The notes beneath the pieces are model-generated. The model was not told the origin of the DNA. It saw only the letters and a list, made by a program, of their open reading frames with translations, and ran no database searches. Source: Escherichia virus TH15. From it: a stretch of DNA of 64,000 nt. The stretch lies in sequence record MT446392.1; one strand, 5' to 3'. Every line of letters starts with the position of its first letter. Position 1 is the first letter of the stretch. A program made the position numbers and the translations under genes. Positions 1,807-49,086 of this stretch are shown in pieces.

Positions 1807-4062
1807 ATGCAAGTACAAAAAAGTAGTGGTGTCTCTCAAGATTTTGATGGCCAGAAAATTATTAAAGTTCTTTCCTGGTCATGTGAAGGAACTAATATCG
1901 ACCCGTATGAATTATACGAAACAATCAAACCACATCTGCGCGATGGTATGACTACCCGCGATATTCAGACGGTTATCATCAAAGTGTCTGCTGGGCTTAT
2001 TTCGGTCGAAGAACCGGATTATCAATATGTTGCAGCGAAGGCTACGATGTTTGCTCTGCGTAAAGATGTTTATGGGCAATTCGAGCCACGTTCTTTTATT
2101 GACCAGATTTCTTATTGTGTTAATGAAGGCAAATATGACCCGGAACTGTTGTCAAGCTACTCCGCCGAAGAGATTACTTATCTGGAATCTCGTATCAAGC
2201 ACGAACGCGATTTTGACCTGACTTATGCAGGCGCGATGCAGTTGAAAGAGAAATACCTGGTTAAAGATAAAACCACTGGTAAAATCTACGAGACTCCACA
2301 ATTCGCTATCATGGCTATCGGCATGGCACTGTACCAGGATGAACCAACGGACCGTCTGAAGCACATTTGCCGTTTTTATGATGCAGTATCCACAAGACAG
2401 GTTTCGTTGCCCACACCTATCATGGCGGGCGCCAGAACACCCACCAGGCAGTTCAGTTCCTGCGTGGTTATCGAAGCTGCAGACTCCCTGAAGTCAATCA
2501 ATAAGACTGCCAATTCAATCATCGAATATATCAGTAAGCGTGCGGGTATCGGCATCAACGTTGGTATGATTCGTGCTGAAGGTTCGAAAATCGGTATGGG
2601 TGAAGTTCGTCATACTGGTGTTATTCCGTTCTGGAAACATTTCCAAACGGCTGTTAAATCCTGTTCACAAGGTGGAATCCGTGGCGGCGCTGCTACTGCT
2701 TATTATCCTTTATGGCATTTGGAAGTTGAAAATTTACTCGTTCTGAAGAACAACAAGGGCGTTGAAGAAAACCGCATCAGACATATGGACTATGGTGTCC
2801 AGTTGAATAACATGATGATGGAACGTCTGGCTAAGAATGATTACATCACTCTGTTTAGTCCACATGAAGCTGGTGGTGAATTGTATTATTCATATTTTGA
2901 TAACCCGGATAAATTCCGCGAGTTATATGAAGCCTTAGAAAAAGACCCGACAGTTCGTAAGAAACGTATCAAAGCAAAAGACCTGTTCGAATTATTCATG
3001 ACCGAACGTTCCGGCACTGCCCGAGTTTATCCACAGTTCGTTGATAACGTGAATGACTATACTCCGTTCATCCGCGATAAGGCTCCGATTCGTCAATCAA
3101 ACCTTTGTTGTGAAATTGCAATCCCGACTACTGATGTAAACAGCGAAGATGCTGAAATCGGATTGTGCACATTGTCTGCATTTGTTCTGGATAGTTTTGA
3201 CTGGCAGGACCAAGATAAGATTAACGAGCTGGCTGAAGTTCAAGTTCGTGCTCTTGATAATCTGTTGGACTACCAAGGTTATCCGGTTAAAGAAGCTCTG
3301 AAAGCCAAAAAACGTCGCAACTTGGGCGTTGGTGTTACCAACTACGCTGCATGGCTGGCAAGCAATTTCGCTTCCTACGCCGATGCAAACGATTTAACCC
3401 ATGAATTATTTGAGAGATTACAATATGGCCTTATCCGAGCATCCATCAAGCTCGCCAAAGAAAAAGGACCTTGCGAATATTATTCAGACACTCGTTGGGC
3501 TCGAGGCGAATTACCTATCGACTGGTACAATAAAAAGATTGACCAAATCGCAGCTCCAAACTACGTTTGTGACTGGGCGCAGCTGCGGGAAGACCTGGTT
3601 GCACATGGCATCCGTAATAGCACCTTATCTGCGCTCATGCCTTGCGAGTCGAGCAGCCAAGTTTCAAATAGTACCAACGGTATCGAACCTCCGCGTGGTC
3701 CAGTAAGTATTAAGGAAAGTAAAGAAGGTTCCTTTAACCAGGTTGTTCCAAATATCGAGCATAATAAAGGATTGTACGATTACGCATGGGTACTGGCTAA
3801 ACAAGGTAATAAACCTTATCTGACTCAAGTCGCGATTATGTTGAAATGGATTTGTCAGTCAGCATCAGCAAACACTTATTATGACCCGCAGAATTATCCG
3901 AAAGGAAAAGTTCCGATGTCAGTTATGCTTGACGACTTGATGTACGGTTGGTATTATGGAATCAAGAATTTTTACTATCACAATACTCGTGATGGCTCGG
4001 GAACTGACGATTACGAATTGGAAATGCCAAAAGCTGATGATTGCTCGGCATGTAAACTGTAA
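1807..4062 (+). CDS. nrdA: ribonucleotide reductase large subunit
   Basis: 751-aa ORF (T4 NrdA is about 754 aa); RBS GAGGAAAA; position after td. Confidence 0.93.
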   Translation: MQVQKSSGVSQDFDGQKIIKVLSWSCEGTNIDPYELYETIKPHLRDGMTTRDIQTVIIKVSAGLISVEEPDYQYVAAKATMFALRKDVYGQFEPRSFIDQISYCVNEGKYDPELLSSYSAEEITYLESRIKHERDFDLTYAGAMQLKEKYLVKDKTTGKIYETPQFAIMAIGMALYQDEPTDRLKHICRFYDAVSTRQVSLPTPIMAGARTPTRQFSSCVVIEAADSLKSINKTANSIIEYISKRAGIGINVGMIRAEGSKIGMGEVRHTGVIPFWKHFQTAVKSCSQGGIRGGAATAYYPLWHLEVENLLVLKNNKGVEENRIRHMDYGVQLNNMMMERLAKNDYITLFSPHEAGGELYYSYFDNPDKFRELYEALEKDPTVRKKRIKAKDLFELFMTERSGTARVYPQFVDNVNDYTPFIRDKAPIRQSNLCCEIAIPTTDVNSEDAEIGLCTLSAFVLDSFDWQDQDKINELAEVQVRALDNLLDYQGYPVKEALKAKKRRNLGVGVTNYAAWLASNFASYADANDLTHELFERLQYGLIRASIKLAKEKGPCEYYSDTRWARGELPIDWYNKKIDQIAAPNYVCDWAQLREDLVAHGIRNSTLSALMPCESSSQVSNSTNGIEPPRGPVSIKESKEGSFNQVVPNIEHNKGLYDYAWVLAKQGNKPYLTQVAIMLKWICQSASANTYYDPQNYPKGKVPMSVMLDDLMYGWYYGIKNFYYHNTRDGSGTDDYELEMPKADDCSACKL

Positions 4063-4790
4063 TGAATTATCAAAACATTTATAATAATTTAATATCCCGG
4101 GGTAAAACCCGGGAACCTTTAGCCGAATATAAAGAGATTCATCATATTATCCCAAGATGTATGGGTGGTACTGATGAAAAGACAAACCTTGTCGAGTTAA
4201 CAGCTCGAGAACATTTTATTGCTCATTTACTTTTATGCAAAATAAATCCCGGTCATTTTGGATTAGTCTCGGCCCTAACTTTAATGGCAACAGATAAAGC
4301 TGGAAATCGTATTAATAATAAATTGTATAGTTTCCATCGAAAGCTATTTGCCAAAGCAAATTCCGAATTCTTTAAGGAACACTGGAAAAATAACCCACAC
4401 CCCCGCGGTATGTTGGGTAAGCATCACAGTGAAGAATCTAAACAAATTGTAAGCGAAAAGAATAAGTTAGCTGTTCCATCTACAGAAATTTATCAATTTA
4501 CTCTCGATGGTGAATTTGTTGAAAAATTTAGGTCATTACAAGAGGCGGCGAGGACTGTAAATGGAAACGCGTCAAACATCAAGTATTGTGCAAGTGGAAA
4601 ATTTCAATATGCGTATGGATTTAGATGGTCATATTCGCTTCAACCCACATTTGATAAAATAACTCCACGACAATATAAAGGTGCCCGTGGTAAAATCTGT
4701 ATTAATGACGGGTTTACAAATAAATTAATTGAATCCTCTGAAATTATCCCCGATGGATGGGTCAGAGGAAGGATAAAGGTTAATAAATGA
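4062..4790 (+). CDS. mobE: freestanding HNH homing endonuclease, MobE-like
   Basis: 242-aa ORF with HHIIPRCMGG...N...H HNH motif; sits between nrdA and nrdB as mobE does in T4; start and stop overlap neighbours (ATGA). Confidence 0.75.
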   Translation: MNYQNIYNNLISRGKTREPLAEYKEIHHIIPRCMGGTDEKTNLVELTAREHFIAHLLLCKINPGHFGLVSALTLMATDKAGNRINNKLYSFHRKLFAKANSEFFKEHWKNNPHPRGMLGKHHSEESKQIVSEKNKLAVPSTEIYQFTLDGEFVEKFRSLQEAARTVNGNASNIKYCASGKFQYAYGFRWSYSLQPTFDKITPRQYKGARGKICINDGFTNKLIESSEIIPDGWVRGRIKVNK

Positions 4791-10365: not shown

Positions 10366-10565
10366 TGAACAATATCGAAAAGATTTTTCGCAAGATTGAA
10401 GAAATTGAAAAAGGTTATGAATACTTTTTCAGCGTATGGCCGCTAACTGATGGACGTATCGGTCTGGATGTGATGGACTATCAAGATGAAGACAAGGTTG
10501 ATGGCGGTATCTTTACCTCCGCCACGGCCCTCCTGGACTTCCTGGAAGAGCATTATGTACGATAA
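10365..10565 (+). CDS. hypothetical protein, 66 aa
   Basis: ORF with ATG overlapping pseT stop. Confidence 0.45.
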
Positions 10566-10770
10566 ACACGATGAAATTAAAGAGGAAGCATACGGCTTCC
10601 TTAACAAACTAGCTGGGCAAGGAATGTCACCTGCCCTGATTAATGAACTGGTAAAAATTCGTAATGATATGAACACAAGATATAAAGGTGAATATCATGT
10701 AGAGTTTGCACCGCTGGTCGAAATCACCGACCGATTCGTTGTTGATGTTCGGGTTCACACCGTTCATTAA
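10555..10770 (+). CDS. hypothetical protein, 71 aa
   Basis: ORF from ATG 10555 overlapping the previous stop by 11 nt. Confidence 0.45.
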   Translation: MYDKHDEIKEEAYGFLNKLAGQGMSPALINELVKIRNDMNTRYKGEYHVEFAPLVEITDRFVVDVRVHTVH

Positions 10771-10795
10771 CGCTTTAAAAATTTTATGTTATAAT
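10771..10795 (+). promoter_or_regulatory. putative middle-type promoter (GCTTTA box, 12-nt spacer, TATAAT)
   Basis: cGCTTTA at 10771-10777 and TATAAT at 10790-10795, followed by GGGTCTAGGTCC cassette. Confidence 0.4.
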
Positions 10796-10841
10796 GGGTC
10801 TAGGTCCTTTGGATAACCCCAATAACTAAGCGAGAAAAGAA

Positions 10842-11723: not shown

Positions 11724-11956
11724 TGCTTAGCGAAACCCCAATTACTGTTGAAGAGTTTCACGAAAAAGTGAAGGCATTTGCTCAAGCGATGATTAACCAC
11801 GTATCACAGCGATTTCCTGATGCGACTCTGAAAGTTATTCAGGAATCTGCACGCAGTTTTATGATTGTCATTAATCCAAAAGATGGTGACCAGTTTACTC
11901 AATTGAAATTGGGTTCTGACGGTCTGGTTGAAGCACAGCGAGTGTACATTCAATGA
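11723..11956 (+). CDS. hypothetical protein, 77 aa
   Basis: ORF translationally coupled (ATGA overlap). Confidence 0.5.
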   Translation: MLSETPITVEEFHEKVKAFAQAMINHVSQRFPDATLKVIQESARSFMIVINPKDGDQFTQLKLGSDGLVEAQRVYIQ

Positions 11957-12288
11957 TGAATTTGATGGATATTTTCCAGGAAGCACTTAAAAATGATTTA
12001 GGTGACCATCGTAAGTTGGACCCGGAGACAACTGCATTTATCAAAGTAACGCTTGCAAATGATGCTCTGTTTAAAAGTATTCACCCAAGTAATTATGATG
12101 CGGTTGTTATTACAGAAGCTCCTGTAGAAATTGGTGAGCGAATGTTTGGGGTGATTTTTGATGATAAGAAAAAACGCTTCAGTGATGGTGATAGTATAAT
12201 TACAACACATGTTAAGAGCATTACTAAATTGCGACATGAATTATATCGTGTTGAAACTATTAAAACCAATTATCTCGTGGTGATGTAA
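11953..12288 (+). CDS. hypothetical protein, 111 aa
   Basis: ORF translationally coupled to neighbours. Confidence 0.5.
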   Translation: MMNLMDIFQEALKNDLGDHRKLDPETTAFIKVTLANDALFKSIHPSNYDAVVITEAPVEIGERMFGVIFDDKKKRFSDGDSIITTHVKSITKLRHELYRVETIKTNYLVVM

Positions 12289-16411: not shown

Positions 16412-16862
16412 GTTAGAAATCAGAAGTAATTTTCCGTGGCCATCATGTGCATTAAGCAACTTTGCTAAATGGCCTTTTGTTATGGAGGGTATCCAGTTTG
16501 GAGGTCTTGAAGGCTTCTTACAAGGGTGCAAGGTGAGAAATCATGAACAACAAAAACGTATATTTGGGATGTCCGGATTGGCCGCCCAGCAAAGTGGAAG
16601 AGCTTATGCAAGAGCTGCGGACCGTGGGACGCTTTTCTGGCTTGGAATTCCCTTTTCAAGATACTCTGCAGCATGGAAAGAGTTGTATACAAATGCATAT
16701 TTTGAAGCAGCGCTCCAGAACCAAGGATTCCGCGATGCGTTACAATCCACAAAAGGCAAAGTTTTAAAGCATTCGATGGCGAGTCACCTTACTGTTCATG
16801 ATACAATATTGACTGAACAAGAATTTATTGACATACTTAACCAATTGAGAGATGCATTATGA
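16395..16862 (+). CDS. NADAR (YbiA/DUF1768)-family protein
   Basis: 155-aa ORF with LSNF...PF..EG..F...E.FLQ..K pattern typical of NADAR/YbiA domains. Confidence 0.6.
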   Translation: MSKMSELEIRSNFPWPSCALSNFAKWPFVMEGIQFGGLEGFLQGCKVRNHEQQKRIFGMSGLAAQQSGRAYARAADRGTLFWLGIPFSRYSAAWKELYTNAYFEAALQNQGFRDALQSTKGKVLKHSMASHLTVHDTILTEQEFIDILNQLRDAL

Positions 16863-28863: not shown

Positions 28864-29253
28864 ATGAATATAAACAAAATGTATAGCGATGTGTCTCCTG
28901 ACTTGTCAATGAGTTGGGATAAAGACGTTGCTAAAGTAACTGGTGCAAGGTCTGTTAAGAACAGTCTTCTGGGAATAATCACCACAAGAAAAGGGTCAAG
29001 GCCTTTTATGCCTGAATTTGGATGTGATATAAGTAATCAGCTTTTTGAGAATATCACTCCATTAATCACAGATACCATTAAACGCAACATCGTCTCCGCT
29101 GTGCGGAACTTCGAACCAAGGATAAGCAATTTGCAGGTTGCAGTTGTCCCTATGTATGATGATAACTCCATCATCGTAACGGTTCAGTTCAGCATTGTTG
29201 ATGACCCTGACACCCTCGAACAAATCAGGATTCAGTTAAGTCAAAACGGTTAA
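28864..29253 (+). CDS. 25: baseplate wedge subunit
   Basis: 129-aa ORF (T4 gp25 132 aa); synteny. Confidence 0.88.
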   Translation: MNINKMYSDVSPDLSMSWDKDVAKVTGARSVKNSLLGIITTRKGSRPFMPEFGCDISNQLFENITPLITDTIKRNIVSAVRNFEPRISNLQVAVVPMYDDNSIIVTVQFSIVDDPDTLEQIRIQLSQNG

Positions 29254-29278
29254 TGCTTTAATTTTATGGCTGTATAAT
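29252..29278 (+). promoter_or_regulatory. MotA-type middle promoter for uvsY
   Basis: aaTGCTTTA 29252-29260, 12-nt spacer, TATAAT 29273-29278, then GGTTCTAGACCC cassette. Confidence 0.55.
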
Positions 29279-29306
29279 GGTTCTAGACCCTTACATTGGA
29301 TACATT

Positions 29307-29741
29307 ATGAAAACAGAGATTGAATATAAGTTGGAAGTATTTCAGGATGAGTTGGATGCAGATTTAAAAATTGATGGTACACAAATTCAATATGAAACAC
29401 AAAACAACGTTTTGTTGCATAGCAAATGGTTGAGATTGTATACCAACTGCAAGAAAGAAATAATGCGTCTTGAGATTCAGAAGAAAACTGCACTGAAAAA
29501 ACGACTAGACCATTATACAGGAAGGGGTGACCCAGGGGAAGAAGTATGCATGGATGTGTACGAGAAGTCAGAATTGAAAACAGTCATGGCCGCAGATTCA
29601 AGCGTGCTTAAGATTGATACTTCAATTCAATATTGGGCACTGCTCCAGGACTTCTGTAGCGCTGCATTAGATGGTGTTAAGTCGCGAAGTTTCGCACTTA
29701 AACATATGTTAGAAATAAGACAATTCGAGGCAGGTAAATGA
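29307..29741 (+). CDS. uvsY: recombination mediator UvsY
   Basis: 144 aa from ATG 29307 (track ATG 29277 lies inside the -10 box); resembles T4 UvsY (137 aa) as recalled. Confidence 0.85.
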   Translation: MKTEIEYKLEVFQDELDADLKIDGTQIQYETQNNVLLHSKWLRLYTNCKKEIMRLEIQKKTALKKRLDHYTGRGDPGEEVCMDVYEKSELKTVMAADSSVLKIDTSIQYWALLQDFCSAALDGVKSRSFALKHMLEIRQFEAGK

Positions 29742-32595: not shown

Positions 32596-33723
32596 ATGGC
32601 TTTTATTGTATCTATTGCAGGTTCAGCCTCAATGAAAATTGGCGATAGCGCCAACTATACCGCTACTGCATCAGGAGCAGCGGTGGAAGGAACTGTCACA
32701 TATGTATGGACTATTGATGGCGCCTCAAATCCAGAATCAACTAACGTTCTTCGTTATACGGGTACTGCTCCCGCGGGAAAGAAAATTTTAAAAGTAGTCG
32801 CGACTTCCACACCGGCTGAAGGTGAGCCTGAAGTAGCCGAAAATACTTTTGAAGTAAATGTATCTAATAAAACTATGAGTATTTCTTTAGCTTTGGACCC
32901 AGTTTCTGTATCTAAAGAAATTGGCCAATCTCAAGTTGTTACTGCTAACGTAACAGGTGCTCCTTCTGGAGCCACGATTGCTTATGTTTGGAAACGCAAT
33001 TCTAATGTAATCGCAGGTCAAACTGGTAAAACTATTACCGTAACCGAAGCAGCAGAAGCAAATTATACTTTGAACTGTGAAGTTACGGTTACTGCTCCTG
33101 AATATGATTCAGCTACTGCTACTAAAGGCGCGACGGTAACTTTTGCCAAGAAAACAATGTCAGGTGTTTCTGTTGTTTTAACACCGGAATCAATTAATGT
33201 TCCTAAAGATACACCAGCATCATTTAAGGCCGATGTAGTCGGTGCACCGAGTGAAGCATCCGGTGTTTATACATGGAAAAAAGATGGTTCTCCTGTTGAA
33301 GGTTCAACTTCCACTTTGACAATTGATACAAGTACCGAAGGTTCTCAAGTCATTGAAGTTTCGGTTGTTGTTTCTGCGCCCGATTATAAATCAGTAACAG
33401 TGACAACAACAGGTAATGTTACTATAACAGCTAAAGTTGCGCCGGAACCAGAAGGGGAACTTCCATATATTCATCCATTACCAGTTCGCAATTCAGCATA
33501 TATTTGGGCCGGTTGGTGGGTTATGGATGAGATTCAGAAGATGACTCTTGCTGGTAAAGACTGGAAAACCGATGAACCTGATAGTAATTATTATCTTCAT
33601 CGATACACTCTTGCCAAAATGCTTAATGATTATCCAGAGGTTGATGTACAAGAATCTCGCAATGGTCGAATTATTCATCGCACCGCGCTTGACGCTGGTA
33701 TTATCTACGACTACGTATATTAA
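32596..33723 (+). CDS. hoc: highly immunogenic outer capsid protein Hoc
   Basis: 375-aa ORF (T4 Hoc 376 aa); Ig-like repeats and conserved C-terminal capsid-binding region (GWWVMDEIQK...EVDVQESRNG). Confidence 0.85.
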   Translation: MAFIVSIAGSASMKIGDSANYTATASGAAVEGTVTYVWTIDGASNPESTNVLRYTGTAPAGKKILKVVATSTPAEGEPEVAENTFEVNVSNKTMSISLALDPVSVSKEIGQSQVVTANVTGAPSGATIAYVWKRNSNVIAGQTGKTITVTEAAEANYTLNCEVTVTAPEYDSATATKGATVTFAKKTMSGVSVVLTPESINVPKDTPASFKADVVGAPSEASGVYTWKKDGSPVEGSTSTLTIDTSTEGSQVIEVSVVVSAPDYKSVTVTTTGNVTITAKVAPEPEGELPYIHPLPVRNSAYIWAGWWVMDEIQKMTLAGKDWKTDEPDSNYYLHRYTLAKMLNDYPEVDVQESRNGRIIHRTALDAGIIYDYVY

Positions 33724-33752
33724 AAAAGAAAGGGCCTTGCGGCCCTTTTTTA
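33724..33752. terminator. bidirectional terminator (GGGCCUUGCGGCCC)
   Basis: Hairpin flanked by A6 and T6 between convergent hoc and hoc-like gene. Confidence 0.8.
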
Positions 33753-33753
33753 T

Positions 33754-34620
33754 TTACCAAACTAAATCCTTTTTACCTAAAATATATCCGTTTCTTGATT
33801 CCTGTACTTCAATATCAGGATATTTCTCAAGCATTTCTGCTATCTTAGCAAGCTCACATTTGTATTTAAATCTATCGTGCATAGGATTCTTATGCCATTC
33901 AAAGCCTTCTATCAAAGCCTCTAAAATCTCATCATGAACCCACCAGCCAATCCACATATAAACTTTATTTCGACCACCACTTAAATGACTAAGATGCTCA
34001 TACTGATTAAGGTCATGAACATAGATATCTTTACATTCTATAGTAGTAGAAGGAGGAACTAATTGAATGTCAATTAGAGCTGTTGTTTCTTTATATCCAC
34101 CATGACTAAATGCTGTAGTAGATAATGTATAAGTTCCGTAATAAGAATCATCTTCAACAGTAAGACTAAATTGTTCATCAGTTCCTATTTGAATGCCATT
34201 ACGAAGCCAAACACACTTTCTATGAACCCATGTTGGCTCTACTATACACTGAGGAGCAAAATGGACCTGGCCGCCTATAGGAACTTCTATATAAAGTCTA
34301 GTTTTAAACTGTATTGTCGGTTCTCTAAGTTCTTCGCCTATTTCTAATTGAATTCTATTAGTTCTATACATCTCCCCTGTTGACTTAACGCCTAAAAGAG
34401 CGTAATATTCTCCTTCGGCTGGATAACCGACATCCCATAAATTTAGAGTCCATGGGTTTTCAGAATCCAACTTAGGTATAAGAACTACATCTTTATACCA
34501 TGCTACGTGAATATCATCAGGATGTATATTTACAGGCAAAGAAATCTCGGATAAATCAAATGTAATATCTTGACCTATCTGAGCATAATGAGGACCATGC
34601 ATAACGGCATATAATTTCAT
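33754..34620 (-). CDS. Hoc paralog: novel N-terminal region fused to Hoc-type C-terminal capsid-binding domain
   Basis: 288-aa ORF; C-terminal ~65 aa share YMWIGWWVHDEI...YPDIEVQESRNGYI with Hoc; RBS GGAGA overlaps stop of upstream collagen-like gene. Confidence 0.7.
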   Translation of the reverse strand: MKLYAVMHGPHYAQIGQDITFDLSEISLPVNIHPDDIHVAWYKDVVLIPKLDSENPWTLNLWDVGYPAEGEYYALLGVKSTGEMYRTNRIQLEIGEELREPTIQFKTRLYIEVPIGGQVHFAPQCIVEPTWVHRKCVWLRNGIQIGTDEQFSLTVEDDSYYGTYTLSTTAFSHGGYKETTALIDIQLVPPSTTIECKDIYVHDLNQYEHLSHLSGGRNKVYMWIGWWVHDEILEALIEGFEWHKNPMHDRFKYKCELAKIAEMLEKYPDIEVQESRNGYILGKKDLVW

Positions 34621-34629
34621 GGGTTCTCC

Positions 34630-35949
34630 TTAAGATGCAAATATTATAGGTATACGCCCATGATTATTATTTTTAATAACCTGAATATAGATGTCAGAAT
34701 CAACATAATCATTTAAAGACCCGGTTGGAAGCATTTTTAAAGTATACCAAAAACCTGTGGCTTTATCTATAATTTCTGCAGTTGAACCTTCTCGACACTT
34801 ATCAAAAGAAATGTTATCCCATGTTACCCATGAGCTAGTCAGGTTTAAATTATTATCTGACTTGTTTTCTAAGCCAACCGCGTCATAGTTTGTGGTTCTA
34901 CGATAAGAATATGAAGCTGGCAAAGAGTCATTAAATCTTTTGACACTGATATCAAATGTGTTTTTAGTTGTGACTTTATATTTCATAGAAATATTAGTAT
35001 CAGCTAGTTTGACCGTGGCTTCAGCATTAGGAGAAGACATTGAATTAAAGCTTAAAATAATTTCCCAATATTTCTTAGGTTCAAATGGTTTAAGCTTGTC
35101 ATATAATTCCTCTAATTGAGATTCTGTCAAGCTGCCAATATCAAGAGCAGGGCCTTGAGGGCCTTGTGCACCGTCTATACCATTTTTACCAGGGTCGCCT
35201 TTTAATCCTTGCAGGCCTTGTGGTCCTTGAGGGCCATCTGTTCCAGCAGGACCTTGGTCACCTTTATCTCCTTTATCACCCTTGTCTCCTTTTGCGCCAG
35301 CCGATGCCATTATGGCCCAATCGTCATTTGACGGCAACGGCGGAATACCGGTATGAGTCGTAAGACTAAAATAGGTAGCTCCTTGGTACGCTACGGCGTC
35401 ATTTGGTACATACTCAATAGATATATCATATTCACCTTTCCATATTAATCCTGTTGCTCCTGCGGGGCCCGGGTCGCCTTTAGGACCATCTAGACCATTT
35501 TTACCCGGGTCGCCTTTAGGACCTTGAATACCTTGAATACCTTGAGGGCCGGTAGCCCCATCAATGCCGTTAGTTCCATCAGCCCCTTTAGGACCTTGAA
35601 TACCAGGTGCACCATCCATCCCGTGTACACCTGCCAGGCCTTGGGGACCTTGTAGACCATCTATTCCAGCAGGACCTTGTGGTCCTGGGTCACCTTTTAA
35701 TCCTTGTGGGCCTTGAATGCCCTGGATACCTTGGTCGCCTTTTGGGCCTACTGCGCCATCAGAAATTCCTATAAATGTCTTTGCTTCTTCTGAAGTAGCT
35801 TTAGTTAAAAATTCTAAACTCCAATCGGTAGTTGAACTTGTCGTAATAAGGTCTTCTACTTGTTTTGTATTACCTGCCTCTGGATTTCTAATGGTTTTGC
35901 CAGAAAAGTTACCTCTACCATCATGCCCAAACAATCTTTCGTCAGCCAT
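34630..35949 (-). CDS. collagen-like repeat protein with C-terminal globular domain
   Basis: 439-aa ORF; two uninterrupted Gly-X-Y runs (33 and 16 triplets); late promoter and RBS upstream. Confidence 0.75.
35149..35298 (-). repeat. collagen Gly-X-Y coding repeat, block 2 (16 triplets incl. GDKGDKGDK)
   Basis: Same periodicity; encodes [19 protein letters not shown]... Confidence 0.8.
35449..35748 (-). repeat. collagen Gly-X-Y coding repeat, block 1 (33 triplets)
   Basis: Periodic GGN-NNN-NNN codons visible as CCNNNNNNN periodicity on + strand. Confidence 0.8.
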
Positions 35950-35984
35950 TGTATCTTCTCCAATTTATTTGAATAACACAATTG

Positions 35985-35992
35985 TATTTATA
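35985..35992 (-). promoter_or_regulatory. late promoter TATAAATA for collagen-like/Hoc-like operon
   Basis: Exact TATAAATA on - strand about 35 nt upstream of the collagen-like ATG. Confidence 0.5.
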
Positions 35993-36041
35993 CTGTTTAC
36001 AAGTTAAAAATTCTATGTTAGGATAGCTTCACTAACTCAAC

Positions 36042-36245
36042 ATGAGAATCATTATGGATAAGGTTAAAGTACATTTTTTACATGAATCGGGTATGACATT
36101 TATTGAAATCGCCAAGGTATTGGGCGGGACTGCTAAAGAAATGGCAAAGGCATGGGTTGATGTAGAACACGCCAAAACCAAATTTAAAGCCAAAGAGAAA
36201 GTTGTGTATCGTAAACGTTTGAATAACAAAAAGGTGAAGAAATGA
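36042..36245 (+). CDS. hypothetical basic protein, 67 aa (24.3 position)
   Basis: ORF; possible helix-turn-helix segment (MTFIEIAKVLGGTAKEMAK). Confidence 0.45.
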   Translation: MRIIMDKVKVHFLHESGMTFIEIAKVLGGTAKEMAKAWVDVEHAKTKFKAKEKVVYRKRLNNKKVKK

Positions 36246-36505
36246 CATTCGCAGAAGAACTACGCCAAATGGCCAAAGAGTCACAAGATAAAGTTGCAAA
36301 TGACTTTATTGCTATATTTCGCAAAGTGGCTATTGCCGCCGCCGAGAATGGCAAAGATGCTGTTAATATGGCAGTTTCTGAAAAAGAGTATGAAGAAGGA
36401 AACCGCGCAAAGATATCTGAATTTCTGCGAGCAGAAAAATTTACATCTTTTACCTGGAATTATGACTGGCAAGATAACAAACCAATGCTGTATGTAAAAT
36501 TCTGA
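36242..36505 (+). CDS. hypothetical protein, 87 aa (24.2 position)
   Basis: ORF with ATGA overlap. Confidence 0.5.
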   Translation: MTFAEELRQMAKESQDKVANDFIAIFRKVAIAAAENGKDAVNMAVSEKEYEEGNRAKISEFLRAEKFTSFTWNYDWQDNKPMLYVKF

Positions 36506-36508
36506 CCT

Positions 36509-36537
36509 TTTTGCTTCAAATAAAATTGTGGTATAAT
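36509..36537 (+). promoter_or_regulatory. MotA-type middle promoter for rnlB
   Basis: tTTGCTTcA 36509-36517, 14-nt spacer, TATAAT 36532-36537, then GGTTCTAGACCC cassette. Confidence 0.5.
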
Positions 36538-36634
36538 GGTTCTAGACCCTTTGAGACTATTAATTCCTTTCAGAGAAAGAAAGTATAGTGGGTCTAATTT
36601 ATAATGATATTTATAACATCAAAAGTGAGAGAAT

Positions 36635-37640: not shown

Positions 37641-37668
37641 AAAAAAGGGCCGCAAGGCCCTTATTCTT
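37641..37668. terminator. bidirectional terminator (GGGCCGCAAGGCCC)
   Basis: Hairpin flanked by A-run and T-run between convergent rnlB and the gene 24 paralog. Confidence 0.7.
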
Positions 37669-38944
37669 TTTCCAGTGGTGGAAGTTTAACACCAAGATAA
37701 GAACTCAATTGGCTTTGGTTAGCCATCTTATCCATATCAGCCCCATCAATAATGCGAGCTTCTTTATCGTCTTTAGCAACGGTATAAGGGTTCGCAGTCA
37801 GTGCATAACGAGCTAACAGTGCAACTGTAGGCTGTAAACTTTCAGGGTCAACGATAACCTTGAATTCCCCAACCGAGGTGTCACCCTCATCATCAACTTC
37901 ACTAAGACCTTCCGTATAAGGCGCATAATACAAAGATGCGACCGTCTGACCTTCACCCATATCGGCATTTACGCCAACAATAACATAATCGCATGGGCTA
38001 TTCATATCTGCATAAAGCGGCAAACCGTTCTTCAGAACGCCATAGGCCAATTCATCCTGGTCGTCCTTTTTCTCAACCCAACCAGAAGCTGCTAAAATAG
38101 CTGCACACCGGGAAGAGGCAACTGCATATGTACCAGCGAACGAAGTCTGACGTTGAACTGCGGAATTCATTTCGCACATATAATAATACAGGGTTCGAGC
38201 CCGGTCTTGCGCATTATCATATCTCGGGTCGGTAAGATTCAATACACCTTTTTCAGAAACACCTTGTACCTTGAAGCGGGAACTAACAGTAATAAGGGAT
38301 TGCAGTACGTCCTTATTAATTTCCTCTGCCATTTGAATGCCAAGGATATTATCAATAAAATCTGTTGCGTCGAAACCATTTGCTTCCAGGTCCTGAGCAA
38401 GCTCAACAGTTAAAGAGGTTTTCAGTTTTCTGGATTTGACTTCGGTCTGCCATTTATCGATACGGAAACCGGCTTCAGCAATTTCAGGATGACCCTGTTC
38501 AAATTTATTAGTGAAAGCTGCATCCGACATCATTCTTATATGGCCAGCAGCAATGGCTTCAGAAATAACTTCACCCAAATCAGTTTCAAGGGTCCCAGCA
38601 AAAGGAGAAGCTTCCAAAACTTTGAATACAACGCTTTCGAACTGGAACATATCGCCGACTGCATAAGCTTCGTCTTTATTTGTAAATTCTGGGATATTCT
38701 TACGCTCGAACATGCCAATCTGGCCTGCAAATGTTGCTCCACCAAGATATGTCATTTTATCATCTGGGTTCAGAACACGAACACCATACAACGCTGCAAC
38801 AGGCTGGGTAGTTTTCTGTTCGGCAACGAGTGCTTTAAAAATTCGTTTATTCGTAGCCTGGGTATAAGAAAGCAAATTAGGACGGGCGACCTGGTTGGCC
38901 GCCGTTAATGTTGATTCGTGAATTAGTGCGTTAATCTTTTGCAT
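37661..38944 (-). CDS. capsid vertex protein paralog (gp24-like, divergent copy)
   Basis: 427-aa ORF, roughly 55% identical by eye to the adjacent gp24; starts immediately after gp24 stop (TAAATG) with GAGG RBS inside the upstream gene. Confidence 0.8.
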   Translation of the reverse strand: MQKINALIHESTLTAANQVARPNLLSYTQATNKRIFKALVAEQKTTQPVAALYGVRVLNPDDKMTYLGGATFAGQIGMFERKNIPEFTNKDEAYAVGDMFQFESVVFKVLEASPFAGTLETDLGEVISEAIAAGHIRMMSDAAFTNKFEQGHPEIAEAGFRIDKWQTEVKSRKLKTSLTVELAQDLEANGFDATDFIDNILGIQMAEEINKDVLQSLITVSSRFKVQGVSEKGVLNLTDPRYDNAQDRARTLYYYMCEMNSAVQRQTSFAGTYAVASSRCAAILAASGWVEKKDDQDELAYGVLKNGLPLYADMNSPCDYVIVGVNADMGEGQTVASLYYAPYTEGLSEVDDEGDTSVGEFKVIVDPESLQPTVALLARYALTANPYTVAKDDKEARIIDGADMDKMANQSQLSSYLGVKLPPLEKE

Positions 38945-40225
38945 TTACGCCTCATAAATGATTGGCGGAAGTTTAACACCGAGCAGATAAGACATATTGC
39001 TCTGGCCGGCCATTAAATCCATATTAGTTGCATCGATAATACGAGCTTCTTTGTCGTCTTTAGCAACGGTGTAAGGGTTAGCTGAAAGTGCATATCGAAC
39101 CATCAGGGAGATAGATGGCTGCAAGCTGTCTGGGTCCACAATGACCTTAAATGCACCTACGTGTTCTTCATCATCTAAGTCCAGGCCTTCGGTATAAGGA
39201 GCATAGAAGATTGAGCCTACGACTTCGTTTCCGCCATAATTTTCTTTAACGCCAACGGTTACATAATCTAATGGACTGTTAACATCACAGAATACAGGAA
39301 GACCATTAATCAAATAACCATACGCGGTTTCCGGGAGCCATTGTTCATCTTCAGGTTTATGTTTCAACCAACCGGAACCGGCGAGCATCGCGGCCACACG
39401 ACTTGAGGCAACAACGAATGTACCAGAGTAAGATGTAGTTTTCTGAATTTCAGAGTTCATTTCGCACACCAGTTCGTACAGTTTACGTGCGCCTTCTGGA
39501 GCTGAATCATATGTCAAATCGATGAAACCTTTATCAGAAACGCCAGTGACTTTATAACGCTTGGAAACGGTAATCAGAGACTGAAGAACATCTTTGTTAA
39601 TTTCATCTGCCATAGTAGTTGCAAGCAGGTCTTCCAGGAAAGCAGGAGCATTAAAACCGTTTGCTTCCATATCCTGTGCAAGTTCAACAGTCAGTGCAGT
39701 TTTCAATTTACGGGATTTAACAGGAGCATTCCATTTATTAACCTGGAATACAGCGTTACTAATTTCAACATCACCAGCTTCAAATTTCTCGGTGTGTGCA
39801 GCATCAGGAACTAAACGAATAGTCGATGCAATAAGACCTTCTTGCAGAACATCAGATAATACTGTTTCTGTAGTCGTTGCAAATGGATTATCCACCAGAG
39901 CTTTGTAAACGATATTTTGATATTTTACATATTCGCCTTTAGCAACAGGTTGAGTAGCTGTAGCTAATTCTGGAATAGTTGTACGGTCTTTAGAACCGAC
40001 TTCACCACCATAAGTAGCACCAGTCTGGAAACTGAATTCATTATCAGGAGTAAGATATTTAACACCGTACAGCGCAGCAACAGGCTGGTTAGTACGTTGT
40101 TCAGCGATGATATCGCGGTAAATCAATTTAGTTGTAGCGCGGGTCAAAGCAACAAGATTCGGGCGGCCTAATGAGTTGCTGGATGTAGTAGTTGACTCGC
40201 GCAGCAGTTCGTTAATCTTTGCCAT
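38945..40225 (-). CDS. 24: capsid vertex protein gp24
   Basis: 426-aa ORF (T4 gp24 427 aa); N-terminus MAKINELLRESTTT matches T4 gp24 as recalled. Confidence 0.9.
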   Translation of the reverse strand: MAKINELLRESTTTSSNSLGRPNLVALTRATTKLIYRDIIAEQRTNQPVAALYGVKYLTPDNEFSFQTGATYGGEVGSKDRTTIPELATATQPVAKGEYVKYQNIVYKALVDNPFATTTETVLSDVLQEGLIASTIRLVPDAAHTEKFEAGDVEISNAVFQVNKWNAPVKSRKLKTALTVELAQDMEANGFNAPAFLEDLLATTMADEINKDVLQSLITVSKRYKVTGVSDKGFIDLTYDSAPEGARKLYELVCEMNSEIQKTTSYSGTFVVASSRVAAMLAGSGWLKHKPEDEQWLPETAYGYLINGLPVFCDVNSPLDYVTVGVKENYGGNEVVGSIFYAPYTEGLDLDDEEHVGAFKVIVDPDSLQPSISLMVRYALSANPYTVAKDDKEARIIDATNMDLMAGQSNMSYLLGVKLPPIIYEA

Positions 40226-46409: not shown

Positions 46410-46901
46410 TTATTCCCACCAGTCAATTGCAAACGTAGTTTCGAATGTCTCAATCTCATTATTCGAATCCCAATCCATCTGAACTTCCCCAACGTTAGTT
46501 GGCCACATGCCGGTGATAACAACTTCTTTAGTAACGGTCTTGCCATCACGATGGAACTGGCGAACAGTAGCGGTTTTCTTATAATCAGCAGGAGCTGCAC
46601 CGGTAATTTCGTTGGTCATACCGTGACACATATTTTGCCAATCAACAATTGCTTGACGAACTTTATGAGCATCGTCGTTATAAATCGTAATAGTCCAGTC
46701 ATCAAATGTACGGTCTCCCGCAACGTTGATTTTACGGTTCATGTAACCAACTGGTACTTTTTCTACAATGCCTGCTGGCATCGGGGCTGCTTTACAATGG
46801 AAAGCAAAGTTTTTACCCAGGAATGGGATTTCGACTTCGAACAGGTTAGGGCGAGCAAAGTCACCGGATTCGAAAGCGCGTGTGATATCGGTCAACTCCA
46901 T
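46410..46901 (-). CDS. 19: tail tube protein
   Basis: 163 aa from ATG at 46901 with GAGGA RBS (same length as T4 gp19); track start 46952 lies beyond the late promoter. Confidence 0.85.
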   Translation of the reverse strand: MELTDITRAFESGDFARPNLFEVEIPFLGKNFAFHCKAAPMPAGIVEKVPVGYMNRKINVAGDRTFDDWTITIYNDDAHKVRQAIVDWQNMCHGMTNEITGAAPADYKKTATVRQFHRDGKTVTKEVVITGMWPTNVGEVQMDWDSNNEIETFETTFAIDWWE

Positions 46902-47019
46902 TAAGGAATCCTCTTTATAGACACAGGTCGCGCGTACGCGTCCCTGATGCATGTATTTATACTAGGTAATATGATTCATCATCTCAAGATAATGGCTTCC
47001 CAGAATCAACCACAGGAGC

Positions 47020-47070
47020 CCGTAGAACCGATTATGCTTTTATTTATAACACTGTATAATGGTTCTACGG
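47020..47070 (+). promoter_or_regulatory. promoter-like cassette flanked by 10-bp perfect inverted repeat
   Basis: CCGTAGAACC (47020-47029) ... atGCTTTt ... TATAAT (47055-47060) ... GGTTCTACGG (47061-47070); TATAAATA on - strand at 47041-47048. Confidence 0.4.
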
Positions 47071-47106: not shown

Positions 47107-49086
47107 TTATTGTGGCCCAATCAGCTCATCAAAATCAGCACCAGTGCTTGTGGCTACGAAATTAAGCGTGATGTAGTTGATGCTGCGCGCAGGTTTAAAA
47201 TAAATGCTAGCAACAAACTCATTTCGGTCTATGACCGACGGGGTGTTGTTAGTAGTATCACAAACCACACGACCTTCATAAATGCCACCAAGCGCGCGAA
47301 TACCATCCAAGTATTGAGAAGTTTCCATACGGAATGATGCACGAGTGAAGTTATCGTTAAGCTCAAACAGTTTATATTTGGATGCGTCACCGATATTTTT
47401 CTTCAGCATATTCGTAAGACGGCGAACGTTAATATGGTCCATCGGAGATGGAACTTTAGTTGCAGTCTTATCACCATACAGAACAAAACCATCACCACCT
47501 GCGAAACCAACAACCGGGTTGATAGCTTCTTGATACATGCGGTCACGCTGGGTCTGACGAGGTTCAACAGCCAATTTCAGAACGTTCAAAATCTGACCAC
47601 GGTTATAACCAGCCGGAGACATCCAAGGCTGAGAAACATCATCAGTACGAGCACACAGACCAGCCATATCAGCTGCCAGAGGAACCCAACGGTTAACGTC
47701 GTTATATTTATCATACTGATATTTATAGTTGCCATCAATCGCTGCATAAGTCGTGCTGATATTCATGTTATCAGTATCGAATGTACCACCGCCTGTACGC
47801 CAGTCAATCAGGTTATCCACTGCACGGGTCAGAGGAACATTAACCAACAGCCCTTTCGGAGGAGAAATGAATGCCAGACAATCCTGACGTTCGTCAGCAA
47901 TAGAAACTACGTGCTTCTGAACAGTGGAAGCAGTTGCATCACCTTCACCAGCTACTGCACCAGCAATAAGCAGGTTAATATGCAGAGCTTCACGGTCAGC
48001 GAACAGGTCCCAACCTTGCATCAAATCACCAGCAGTAATCTTATCGTTTGCAGAAATACCACCCGACAGATTGATAATACCGCTGAAGCCTACAGGCCAG
48101 TTACGAGATGTTGCATAGATGTAGTTGGAAGTACCTTTTGCAAAGTAGTCATCCAGGTAAATATTATTACCGTAAACATCTTTTTCGCCCTGCTTAGTAG
48201 ATAGAACAACGTTTTCGACGATTGCACCATCACGGCGAACGATAATTGCATATTGGTTTTCGGACTGGGGTCCATAGTTAAACAATGCACGAGCTACAGA
48301 AGCACGCGTACCACCACCAGGGAAAATATCCAGATTTGTAGTTGCACCTTTTTCGAATTCAGCTTTAGATACGATTTCAACTTCCAGAGTCGAACCAATT
48401 TCACCAGGATAAAGAGCAACAACACCTGGCATTGCATATTTGGCTAAAGATGCCTGGAATTCCAGAGAAGTAATTACTTCTTCACTGTTTTCTGCTTCGG
48501 TCAACAGAATACCTGAATCGGTAACAATTTTACCTACAGTGATTGTACCGGATACACCAGAAGAAGTGGTCGTAACTTCTGCAGTCCACGCACTACCCAA
48601 ATTAGGATACTGATTAATAGTTTTAGCAAATGCAATAATCTTATTGGTAGGAATAAAGATTGCCAGAATTTTACCATCAACATCAACCTTGGTCACACGG
48701 CCAGCTGGTTCAACGACCGTCTGGTTATGCTTAACCTGGATAACATCACCAACGGCATAGTTTGTACCCGCAGTAACGATGGTAGTTTCAATATTGCCGG
48801 CAACAGGGGATGCGTTTTTAGCTTCGTCGCGGTTAACAACACGTACAGTACGAAGGTCGTTACCATATTGCAGGAAGTTCATCCCACTCATAAAGTAATC
48901 TGCTGTTTCATTATTCGGACCACCAAACAAATCAACAAGTTCAACTTCGTTTGTAATCTGAGTTACCTGGAAAGCTGGGCCCCACTGGAATTTACCAACC
49001 AGCGCCGCACGACCCGTCGCGTTACGAACAACAGTGCTTTGGACCGTTGTTTCTTTGAGCTCAATGCCCGGGGATAATAAAGCCAT
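47107..49086 (-). CDS. 18: tail sheath protein
   Basis: 659-aa ORF, same length as T4 gp18; N-terminus ALLSPGIELKETTVQSTVV matches as recalled. Confidence 0.93.
   Translation of the reverse strand: MALLSPGIELKETTVQSTVVRNATGRAALVGKFQWGPAFQVTQITNEVELVDLFGGPNNETADYFMSGMNFLQYGNDLRTVRVVNRDEAKNASPVAGNIETTIVTAGTNYAVGDVIQVKHNQTVVEPAGRVTKVDVDGKILAIFIPTNKIIAFAKTINQYPNLGSAWTAEVTTTSSGVSGTITVGKIVTDSGILLTEAENSEEVITSLEFQASLAKYAMPGVVALYPGEIGSTLEVEIVSKAEFEKGATTNLDIFPGGGTRASVARALFNYGPQSENQYAIIVRRDGAIVENVVLSTKQGEKDVYGNNIYLDDYFAKGTSNYIYATSRNWPVGFSGIINLSGGISANDKITAGDLMQGWDLFADREALHINLLIAGAVAGEGDATASTVQKHVVSIADERQDCLAFISPPKGLLVNVPLTRAVDNLIDWRTGGGTFDTDNMNISTTYAAIDGNYKYQYDKYNDVNRWVPLAADMAGLCARTDDVSQPWMSPAGYNRGQILNVLKLAVEPRQTQRDRMYQEAINPVVGFAGGDGFVLYGDKTATKVPSPMDHINVRRLTNMLKKNIGDASKYKLFELNDNFTRASFRMETSQYLDGIRALGGIYEGRVVCDTTNNTPSVIDRNEFVASIYFKPARSINYITLNFVATSTGADFDELIGPQ

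What the first reader, a model, noticed from the sequence alone, without database searches (positions are those of the whole stretch)
29271..29290. Reused promoter cassette TGTATAATGGTTCTAGACCC at several loci
Nearly identical 18-20-nt cassettes occur at 29271-29290 (before uvsY) and 36529-36548 (before rnlB), with variants at 10787-10808 and 47052-47070. Each is a TATAAT box fused to a conserved GGTTCTAGACC initial-transcribed sequence, and most are preceded 12-14 nt upstream by a MotA-box-like GCTT(T/C)A. Short identical promoter cassettes scattered through the genome could act as portable regulatory units or as homology patches for module exchange. This resembles what I recall of promoter-early stem-loop elements in T4-type phages, but that link is a hypothesis.
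Basis: partly seen in the sequence, partly recalled or inferred. Interest (0 to 1): 0.45.

Follow-up and report, generated by a model that had tools for sequence, protein, structure and literature searches.

The report
Repeated MotA-type middle promoter core
Four near-identical promoter units of about 45 bases in this T4-like coliphage are MotA-type "middle" promoters of a conserved subclass that T4 itself also carries, so the repeat is real but is a well-known kind of phage gene switch.

Summary
GTATAATGGTTCTAGACCCTT (21 nt) occurs exactly at 29272-29292 and 36531-36551, with variants at 10790 and 47055. The core TATAATG[AG][ATG]TCT[AG] occurs 4 times against about 0.01 expected. Every copy has GCTT 14-15 nt upstream.

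These are T4-type MotA/AsiA-dependent middle promoters: a MotA box, a 12-13 bp spacer, a perfect -10, and no -35. GGTTCT is the untranscribed discriminator. By homology with mapped T4 starts (PuvsY, PnrdC.7, P34i), +1 is the A after TCT. Three copies drive uvsY, rnlB and cd.3. The fourth lies between late genes 19 and 18 and fires antisense into gene 18.

The same extended core sits at orthologous loci in T4, RB69 and VR7 and at PuvsY in three more genera. These loci include PuvsY (T4 oriF) and two antisense sites absent from the 2010 T4 promoter table. Copies within a genome resemble each other more than their orthologues, which suggests gene conversion or a shared constraint.

The PeSL link is not supported: there is no -35 and no upstream stem-loop, and the sites lie mostly in core regions. 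Only one of four sites abuts an indel. These are new members of a known kind, with modest interest.

The parts
29251..29260 (+). MotA box TAATGCTTTA of PuvsY; its first three bases are the stop codon of gene 25
   Evidence: It matches the T4 consensus (a/t)(a/t)(a/t)TGCTTtA quoted in PMC2988021.
29273..29285 (+). PuvsY core: -10 TATAAT (29273-29278), discriminator GGTTCT (29279-29284), predicted +1 A (29285). uvsY ATG is at 29307.
   Evidence: The +1 is inferred from the mapped T4 PuvsY start at 115371, the A after TCT.
36509..36518 (+). MotA box TTTTGCTTCA of PrnlB, 4 nt after the stop codon of the 24.2-like ORF (36242-36505)
36532..36544 (+). PrnlB core: TATAAT, GGTTCT, predicted +1 A at 36544. 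rnlB ATG is at 36635.
   Evidence: It is 21 nt identical to the PuvsY copy.
36544..36595 (+). rnlB 5' leader hairpin that starts at +1. AGACCC pairs with GGGUCU, and the 3' arm TATAGTGGGTCTA is a degenerate second cassette copy.
   Evidence: dG -13.3 kcal/mol, z -1.8. VR7 and RB69 keep a hairpin with different arm sequences.
10768..10777 (+). MotA box TAACGCTTTA of Pcd.3; it overlaps the stop codon of the upstream ORF (10486-10770)
10790..10802 (+). Pcd.3 core: TATAAT, GGGTCT, predicted +1 A at 10802. ATG of the cd.3 homologue is at 10842.
   Evidence: The orthologue is VR7 cd.3.
47032..47041 (+). MotA-box variant TTATGCTTTT of the antisense copy in the gene 19/gene 18 intergenic region
47055..47067 (+). 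Antisense copy core: TATAAT, GGTTCT, predicted +1 A at 47067. It points into the 3' end of late gene 18 (47107-49086, minus strand).
   Evidence: It is conserved in VR7 at 97030 and absent from T4 and RB69.
47041..47048 (-). TATAAATA (late-promoter consensus, from my own knowledge of T4) on the opposite strand, inside the spacer of the antisense copy and upstream of gene 19
   Evidence: Read directly. Function was not tested.

Best explanation
The four sites are T4-type middle promoters that work by sigma appropriation. AsiA remodels sigma70 region 4, MotA binds the box centred near -30, and sigma70 region 2 reads the perfect TATAAT. Transcription starts at the A that follows GGTTCT, at 29285, 36544, 10802 and 47067. 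Three sites give middle-period expression of uvsY, rnlB and cd.3. The fourth makes a transcript antisense to the 3' end of late gene 18 and is placed back to back with a late-promoter-like TATAAATA for gene 19. All four belong to an old subclass of middle promoters whose conservation runs from about -15 to about +18: (TGn)TATAAT-G(G/A)n-TCT-A-RR-yCC-yTT. The -10 hexamer, the G at -6, the pyrimidine at -1 and the purine at +1 form the part I take to be selected for strong, precisely positioned initiation. This is an inference from known sigma region 1.2/discriminator and start-site preferences. The longer identities between copies are best explained by common descent of the whole unit plus occasional gene conversion between copies. 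PuvsY is the positional orthologue of the T4 promoter that also primes replication at oriF, and it is followed by an unusually A+T-rich stretch. It probably has the same second role here. Shown: the sequence architecture, its enrichment, its orthology and its conservation. Inferred: MotA dependence, the +1 positions, the antisense RNA and the origin role.
For: Architecture: GCTT lies 14-15 nt upstream of TATAAT in 4 of 4 sites, with a 12-13 bp gap. This matches the published rule of a MotA box 12 +/- 1 bp from TAtaaT (PMC2988021). None of the four appears in the -35/-10 scan.

Specificity: every genomic occurrence of the core is attached to a GCTT box: T4 5/5, VR7 8/8, window 4/4, against a Markov expectation of 0.03-0.2.

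Start site: the mapped T4 starts PuvsY 115371, PnrdC.7 53325, P34i 153011 and PnrdD+ 46440 fall on the base after TCT/CCC in the T4 sequence.

Conservation: the same core lies at orthologous loci in T4, RB69 and VR7. It is also at PuvsY in Dhakavirus, Kanagawavirus and Jiaodavirus, while an RB49-like Krischvirus and a Slopekvirus have -35/-10 promoters there instead. The 66-nt PuvsY segment is 100% identical in 30 records, and records such as VR20 are only about 91% identical over the surrounding 10 kb. VR7 encodes motA and asiA.

The window's PuvsY is followed by 28% G+C at +20 to +120, the 1.2th percentile of the window.

Shared descent or conversion: paralogue similarity exceeds orthologue similarity, and there are cross-locus leader identities.
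Against: There are no transcript data for this phage, and motA and asiA lie outside the 64-kb window. Several copies carry TGn or TG next to a perfect -10, so they could fire without MotA. The conservation from +2 to +18 and the weak dyad symmetry across +1 are not explained by known RNA polymerase contacts. The antisense copies have no demonstrated product. Gene conversion is inferred from a handful of short sequences and cannot be separated from co-evolution with a shared trans-acting factor.
Confidence: 0.8

Rival explanations
1. The units are PeSL/PmSL-type mobile regulatory cassettes: composite terminator-promoter elements whose recombination shuffles genes between T4-type phages.
For: The unit is reused, and it carries a Mot box like the PmSLs of vibriophage nt-1. 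VR7 has an extra gene, 19.1, starting about 20-40 nt downstream of the 19/18 copy. A MobB-like gene sits next to VR7's gene 3/2 copy. T4 lacks the whole rnlB promoter and leader segment.
Against: There is no -35. There is no upstream stem-loop at 3 of 4 sites, and the fourth (cd.3) folds only within coding sequence. The sites are at core genes (25/uvsY, 18/19), not in hyperplastic ORFan arrays. Only 1 of 4 window copies is near one of about 9 window/VR7 breakpoints, which I roughly estimate has about an 11% chance of happening at random. The loci are positionally stable across three or more genera.
Confidence: 0.08
2. The conserved -6 to +7 segment (GGnnCT/AGnnCC) is a dyad-symmetric operator for an additional, unidentified dimeric phage or host protein that controls this subset of middle promoters. 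The lineage-specific versions reflect co-evolution with that protein.
For: Dyad symmetry across +1 averages 3.18 of 6 complementary positions against 2.20 +/- 0.19 after shuffling. The window has GG(T/G)TCT/AGACCC and JD18 has GGGACT/AGTCC, an apparently compensatory T:A to A:T swap. Paralogues co-vary within each genome. Conservation extends beyond known polymerase contacts.
Against: Symmetry is poor in many copies: 1/6 in win_19as, VR7_nrdC6 and Q7622, and 3/6 in T4 PuvsY. The copies are not independent, so the shuffle test overstates significance. No candidate protein is known. Gene conversion explains the co-variation equally well.
Confidence: 0.12
3. The subclass marks promoters whose transcripts are not primarily mRNAs but primers or R-loop formers for replication origins, or regulatory antisense RNAs.
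For: Both biochemically defined T4 R-loop origins use such promoters. PuvsY/oriF has TATAATGAATCTA. P34i/oriG has TATAATGGTCCCA, which matches at -10, the G at -6 and the +1 purine (PMC3016281). The window's PuvsY and PrnlB are followed by very A+T-rich DNA. Three VR7 copies, two T4 copies and one window copy face into the 3' end of the upstream gene with no ORF to express.
Against: The other T4 copies do not coincide with annotated origins: oriA is at 16763 and oriE at 79355, against copies at 11885, 53337 and 75988. The review states that no motif is shared among T4 origins. uvsY, rnlB, cd.3 and nrdC.7 copies sit at normal mRNA-promoter positions with ribosome-binding sites. P34i fails the strict core pattern.
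Confidence: 0.1
4. They are MotA-independent extended -10 (TGn/-10) sigma70 promoters, and the upstream GCTT is incidental.
For: PrnlB (TGGTATAAT) and Pcd.3 (TGTTATAAT) have a canonical TGn. TGn/-10 promoters are immune to AsiA (PMC2988021).
Against: GCTT at the right distance is present in 17 of 17 core occurrences in three genomes. T4 PuvsY, PnrdC.7 and P34i are listed as experimentally identified MotA-dependent promoters. About half of known middle promoters also carry TGn, so TGn does not argue against MotA dependence.
Confidence: 0.07

Closest known systems
T4 PuvsY, the MotA-dependent middle promoter of uvsY that also primes replication origin oriF/ori(uvsY)
   Same: It has the same position (directly after gene 25, before uvsY) and the same architecture: TAATGCTT(C/T)A, a 12-13 nt gap, TATAAT, G at -6, TCT, +1 A, then yCC. 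An A+T-rich stretch follows downstream.
   Different: The spacer and positions -5, -4 and +2 to +10 differ: T4 has GAATCTAAGTCCATCC and the window has GGTTCTAGACCCTTAC, 10 of 18 identical. The leader is 22 nt here against 44 nt in T4. Origin activity is untested here.
T4 middle promoters in general (sigma appropriation by AsiA and MotA; 58 promoters in Hinton 2010)
   Same: MotA box, 12 +/- 1 bp spacing, excellent -10, no -35, TGn in about half.
   Different: Most T4 middle promoters have A/T-rich sequence after TATAAT and no conserved start region. The subclass here adds G(G/A)nTCT-A-RRyCCyTT. It makes up 5 of 18 (T4), 8 of 26 (VR7) and 4 of 8 (window) of the perfect-TATAAT MotA-type sites.
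PeSL and PmSL elements of T4-type phages (Arbiol 2010; Comeau 2014)
   Same: Short, repeated, promoter-containing units in T4-type genomes. PmSLs also use a Mot box plus a -10.
   Different: PeSL/PmSL are defined by a stem-loop just upstream of the promoter, and they cluster in hyperplastic regions next to indels. Here there is no upstream stem-loop, no -35, mostly core-gene locations, and positional stability across genera.
T4 P34i, the promoter of ori(34)/oriG inside late gene 34
   Same: It is a MotA-type promoter pointing antisense to a late gene, with TATAATGG at the -10 and discriminator. It is comparable to the window's 19/18 antisense copy.
   Different: P34i lies inside a coding region and has GGTCCC rather than GGTTCT. 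The window copy is intergenic, is not followed by A+T-rich DNA, and is absent from T4 and RB69.

Membership tests
T4-type MotA/AsiA-dependent middle promoter | MotA box (a/t)(a/t)(a/t)TGCTT(t/c)A centred near -30 | tested here: met
   The boxes are TAATGCTTTA, TTTTGCTTCA, TAACGCTTTA and TTATGCTTTT. GCTT is invariant, and the last site deviates at the final base.
T4-type MotA/AsiA-dependent middle promoter | Box positioned 12 +/- 1 bp upstream of the -10 element | tested here: met
   The gaps are 12, 13, 12 and 13 bp. The rule is quoted from PMC2988021.
T4-type MotA/AsiA-dependent middle promoter | Excellent sigma70 -10 element (TAtaaT) and no sigma70 -35 element | tested here: met
   TATAAT is present in 4 of 4 sites. 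None of the four sites is listed by the -35/-10 scan.
T4-type MotA/AsiA-dependent middle promoter | The phage encodes MotA and AsiA | not testable with these tools
   The motA/asiA region lies outside the window. The close relative VR7 (89-97% nucleotide identity over most of the window, lower at its 3' end) encodes both.
T4-type MotA/AsiA-dependent middle promoter | MotA/AsiA-dependent initiation at a defined +1 in vivo or in vitro | not testable with these tools
   This rests only on orthology. The T4 PuvsY, PnrdC.7 and P34i starts were mapped experimentally and fall on the equivalent base.
PeSL (promoter-early stem-loop) | Sigma70-like early promoter with -35 and -10 boxes | tested here: not met
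   There is no -35, and a MotA box occupies that position.
PeSL (promoter-early stem-loop) | Stem-loop (terminator-like) located just upstream of the promoter | tested here: not met
   The upstream 60 nt fold no better than shuffles at uvsY (z -0.1), rnlB (z +1.2) and 19/18 (z +0.2). Only cd.3 reaches z -2.0, and that is within coding sequence. No terminator-like hit lies upstream of the uvsY or rnlB copy. The one next to the 19/18 copy (47025-47010) is on the minus strand.
PeSL (promoter-early stem-loop) | Location in hyperplastic regions, close to insertions, deletions or replacements between close relatives | tested here: not met
   Three of four copies lie inside long collinear blocks shared with VR7. 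Only the 19/18 copy abuts an indel. The loci are conserved in T4 and RB69.
PmSL (promoter-middle stem-loop, vibriophage nt-1) | Mot box plus -10 box preceded by a stem-loop | tested here: not met
   The Mot box and -10 are present, but the stem-loop is absent.
T4 R-loop replication origin of the oriF/oriG type (PuvsY copy only) | Middle-mode promoter followed by an A+T-rich DNA unwinding element within about 100 bp | tested here: inconclusive
   The promoter is present. G+C is 28% at +20 to +120, the 1.2th percentile of the window. Position is orthologous to T4 oriF. Unwinding, R-loop formation and origin firing cannot be tested here.

The most novel reading that the evidence does not exclude
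The extended core (TGnTATAAT-G(G/A)nTCT-A-RRyCCyTT, weakly dyad-symmetric about +1) defines a separate regulon within middle transcription that is conserved across at least six Tevenvirinae genera. It includes PuvsY/oriF and, loosely, P34i/oriG, the promoters of the two T4 R-loop origins. It also includes conserved promoters that fire antisense into the 3' ends of modA, gene 2 and, in this lineage, gene 18. These antisense promoters are not in the 2010 table of 58 T4 middle promoters. On this reading the start-site element is read by something beyond MotA, AsiA and sigma70, either a protein or a property of the nascent RNA or displaced strand. It would give these promoters a distinct job such as priming replication or making antisense RNA. 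The within-genome homogenisation of copies would then reflect co-evolution with that factor.
Probability: 0.15. Interest if true: 0.6.

Novelty: new member of a known kind. Interest (0 to 1): 0.3.

Why it matters
This assigns four regulatory sites in an unannotated T4-like genome, with predicted start points, to the well-understood sigma-appropriation mechanism. It identifies the likely counterpart of T4 origin oriF. It also corrects a tempting but wrong link to PeSL shuffling elements. Beyond annotation, it gives three concrete targets for experiments in T4 itself, where the same sites exist. First, a subset of middle promoters shares a start-region motif. Second, that subset shows concerted evolution between copies. 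Third, conserved antisense copies sit at srd/modA and gene 3/2.

Tried and rejected
1. A general 5' stem-loop as the reason for the conserved leader. I folded +1 to +60/+100 of 16 copies from the window, VR7 and T4 and four window leaders with shuffles. Only the rnlB leaders and the T4 gene 3/2 antisense copy form a 5' hairpin, so this was rejected as a family feature.

2. Cassette copies as replication origins. Positions were compared with T4's rep_origin annotations: oriA 16763, oriE 79355, oriF 115321, oriG 152947. Only PuvsY and, loosely, P34i coincide.

3. An IMG/VR scan with GTATAATGNNTCTANNNCC. Only 20 hits had a GCTT box, nearly all from T4-like contigs duplicating T4 loci. It did not help with diversity.

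4. A literal-sequence literature search for TATAATGGTTCT, TATAATGAATCT, TATAATGGGTCT and GGTTCTAGACC. No phage paper was found. The Miller 2003 T4 genome review is not held. The two 2010 reviews mention antisense transcription only in reference lists.

5. Rfam search of the whole window. No family reached threshold.

6. Breakpoint association, from window-versus-VR7 and window-versus-T4 BLAST. Only the 19/18 copy is adjacent to an indel.

7. Sigma70-dependent pausing, NAD-capping consensus and anti-Shine-Dalgarno mimicry of the leader. I considered these from memory and dropped them because the required positions are not conserved across copies. None was formally tested.

Full report
**What is there.** The window comes from a T4-like coliphage of the Gaprivervirus/Dhakavirus group. 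Its best matches are VR20, VR25 and VR7, at 90-96% identity over 65-73% of a 10-kb probe. The window's + strand is the early/middle transcription direction, which is the minus strand of the VR7 and T4 records.

The longest exact repeat is 21 nt, GTATAATGGTTCTAGACCCTT, at 29272-29292 and 36531-36551. Variants are TATAATGGGTCTAGGTCC at 10790 and TATAATGGTTCTACGG at 47055.

The motif is far from chance:
- TATAATGGTTCTAGACC with up to 3 mismatches gives 3 hits against 0.13 expected.
- TATAATGRDTCTR gives 4 hits against 0.01 expected.
- GCTT-N14/15-TATAATGRDTCTR gives 4 hits against 0.00 expected.

**Context.** Genes were assigned by synteny with annotated VR7.
- The first copy follows the stop codon of gene 25 and precedes uvsY (ATG 29307).
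- The second follows a 24.2-like ORF and precedes rnlB (ATG 36635).
- The third precedes the cd.3 homologue (ATG 10842).
- The fourth lies between gene 19 (46410-46901) and gene 18 (47107-49086). Both are on the minus strand, so this copy points antisense into the end of gene 18. Its spacer contains TATAAATA on the opposite strand, upstream of gene 19. From my own knowledge of T4, that is the late-promoter consensus.

**What they are.** All four have GCTT(T/C)(A/T) 12-13 bp upstream of a perfect TATAAT. None appears in a sigma70 -35/-10 scan. This is the defining layout of T4 middle promoters: a MotA box (a/t)(a/t)(a/t)TGCTTtA, 12 +/- 1 bp from TAtaaT, replacing the -35 (Hinton 2010, PMC2988021).

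I assembled the VR7 and T4 genomes from the annotated records and scanned them. Every occurrence of the core TATAATG[AG][ATG]TCT[AG] is preceded by GCTT at the right distance: T4 5/5, VR7 8/8, window 4/4. First-order Markov simulations expect 0.03-0.2 core occurrences per genome. The motif is therefore a property of a subset of MotA-type promoters and is not a free-standing element. The subset makes up 5 of 18 (T4), 8 of 26 (VR7) and 4 of 8 (window) of all GCTT-N14/15-TATAAT sites. The other known T4 middle promoters mostly have A/T-rich sequence after the -10.

**Start site.** Hinton's Table 1 gives experimentally identified T4 starts at PuvsY 115371, PnrdC.7 53325, PnrdD+ 46440 and P34i 153011. 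In the T4 sequence these are the base directly after TCT (CCC for P34i), 12 nt after the first T of TATAAT. By homology, +1 in the window is 29285, 36544, 10802 and 47067. GGTTCT is therefore the untranscribed discriminator (-6 to -1), and only AGACC... is transcribed.

**Conservation.** T4 carries the same extended core at several loci:
- PuvsY: TATAATGAATCTAAGTCCATCC.
- PnrdC.7: TATAATGGTTCTAAGCCC.
- PnrdD+.
- The srd/modA intergenic region, on the + strand at 11885: TATAATGAATCTAAGTCCTTCC.
- The gene 3/gene 2 intergenic region, at 75988: TATAATGGGTCTAAGTCCCTTCC.

The last two point antisense into the upstream gene and are not in the 2010 table of 58 middle promoters.

VR7 has copies at the orthologous srd/modA, gene 3/2, nrdC.6, gene 49 and uvsY positions, plus rnlB, cd.3 and 19/18. 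RB69 has them at srd/modA, gene 3/2, uvsY and rnlB, but not at 18/19.

At PuvsY the pattern TATAATG, then mostly G, then (C/T)T, then A also holds in JS10 (Dhakavirus), Q7622 (Kanagawavirus) and JD18 (Jiaodavirus). An RB49-like Krischvirus and a Slopekvirus have ordinary -35/-10 promoters there.

T4 has no intergenic promoter or leader before rnlB, no copy at cd.4/cd.3 and none at 18/19. The family has therefore gained or lost members over time.

**Why the copies are so alike.** Across 13 aligned copies the invariant columns are GCTT, TATAATG and the C at -2. That much fits selection on the core promoter: -10, a G next to it, a pyrimidine at -1 and a purine at +1. The link to sigma region 1.2 and start-site preferences is my inference from general knowledge, not a test.

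Similarity goes further, however. Within a genome, paralogous copies are more alike than orthologues. T4 PuvsY against T4 srd/modA-antisense scores 16 of 18 over -6 to +12, but only 10 of 18 against the window's PuvsY. The window's PuvsY against its PrnlB scores 15 of 18. RB69's PuvsY and gene 3/2 copies share the private variant GGTTTTAGGTC.

Non-orthologous copies in different genera also share leader stretches. VR7 PrnlB and RB69 PuvsY share CCTTCCGATAC. T4 gene 3/2-antisense and RB69 PrnlB share TCCATTCAA.

This is the signature of a common ancestral unit running from the MotA box to about +18, with occasional gene conversion between copies. Alternatively, it could reflect co-evolution with a shared trans-acting factor. 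I cannot separate the two with these data.

There is a modest dyad symmetry across +1 (GGnnCT/AGnnCC). It averages 3.18 of 6 complementary positions against 2.20 +/- 0.19 after shuffling. There is also an apparently compensatory pair: the window has GGKTCT/AGACC and JD18 has GGGACT/AGTCC. Many copies are asymmetric, though, and the copies are not independent.

**Replication origin.** T4's record annotates oriF at PuvsY, with the uvsY transcript as primer. It annotates oriG at the antisense promoter inside gene 34. The Kreuzer and Brister review describes both origins as a middle-mode promoter plus an A+T-rich unwinding element (PMC3016281). The window's PuvsY is the positional orthologue, and it is followed by 28% G+C at +20 to +120, the 1.2th percentile of the window. 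An oriF-like role is plausible for that copy. The other T4 copies do not coincide with annotated origins, so this does not explain the family.

**PeSL comparison.** PeSLs are a stem-loop just upstream of a sigma70 -35/-10 early promoter, followed by a Shine-Dalgarno sequence and start codon. They sit in hyperplastic regions next to indels. PmSLs are the Mot-box version found in vibriophage nt-1 (PMC4122927).

Here there is no -35 and no upstream stem-loop at three of four sites. The sites are at core genes, and the loci are stable across genera. Against VR7, only the 19/18 copy abuts an indel: VR7 gene 19.1 (683 nt) begins about 20-40 nt downstream of +1. With about nine breakpoints in 64 kb, I roughly estimate an 11% chance of one such coincidence among four sites. 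VR7's gene 3/2 copy also abuts a MobB-like insertion. This is suggestive but weak.

**Verdict.** The promoter reading is right in substance: these are MotA-box middle promoters. The "initial transcribed sequence" label is partly wrong. The PeSL link fails two defining features. The sites are new members of the well-known middle-promoter class and belong to an extended-core subclass. I could not find that subclass described in the searchable literature, but the older T4 literature is not held.

No transcript data exist for this phage. MotA dependence, the start sites, the antisense RNA and the origin role all rest on orthology and inference.

Noticed in passing
window 29497-29511, minus strand (inside uvsY): TGTATAATGGTCTAG is a near-copy of the cassette core with one T missing. 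It lies antisense within the uvsY coding region, about 225 nt downstream of PuvsY +1, and points back toward it. It has no MotA box upstream. It could be a coding coincidence or an MotA-independent antisense promoter.
   Followed up: partly
window 36544-36596: The rnlB 5' leader folds into a roughly 50-nt hairpin that starts at +1 (dG -13.3 kcal/mol, z -1.8). VR7 (ACCUUC/GAGGGU) and RB69 (UCUAUC/GAUAGA) keep a hairpin with different arm sequences. T4 lacks the whole leader. The 3' arm, TATAGTGGGTCTA, looks like a degenerate second cassette copy.
   Followed up: partly
window 47041-47048 and 46954-46961, minus strand: Two TATAAATA sequences (late-promoter consensus, from my own knowledge of T4) lie upstream of gene 19. 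The first sits inside the spacer of the antisense middle promoter, so the two promoters overlap back to back and could compete.
   Followed up: no
T4 AF158101 + strand 11885-11920 and 75988-76025; RB69 + strand about 12088-12135 and 79266-79310; VR7 + strand 11688 and 71496: Conserved MotA-type promoters point antisense into the 3' ends of modA and gene 2 (in VR7, into a MobB-like gene). They are absent from the 2010 table of 58 T4 middle promoters. The T4 and RB69 gene 3/2 copies are followed by a hairpin with co-varying arms.
   Followed up: partly
window 4062-4790 (+), and 913-1797: These are inserts absent from VR7. A 242-aa ORF with a NUMOD1 domain (homing-endonuclease type) sits between nrdA and nrdB, where T4 has mobE. 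Two small ORFs (DUF4326, DUF5496) sit between td and nrdA, the second preceded by a MotA-type promoter at about 1479.
   Followed up: partly
window 32618-35993: This is a variable hoc region, poorly matched in VR7 and T4. It includes a 439-aa minus-strand ORF with collagen triple-helix repeats (34630-35949) and a 288-aa ORF with no Pfam hit (33754-34620).
   Followed up: partly
window 37661-40225, minus strand: Two tandem paralogous capsid-vertex genes of 427 and 426 aa correspond to VR7 24(1) and 24(2). T4 has a single gene 24.
   Followed up: no
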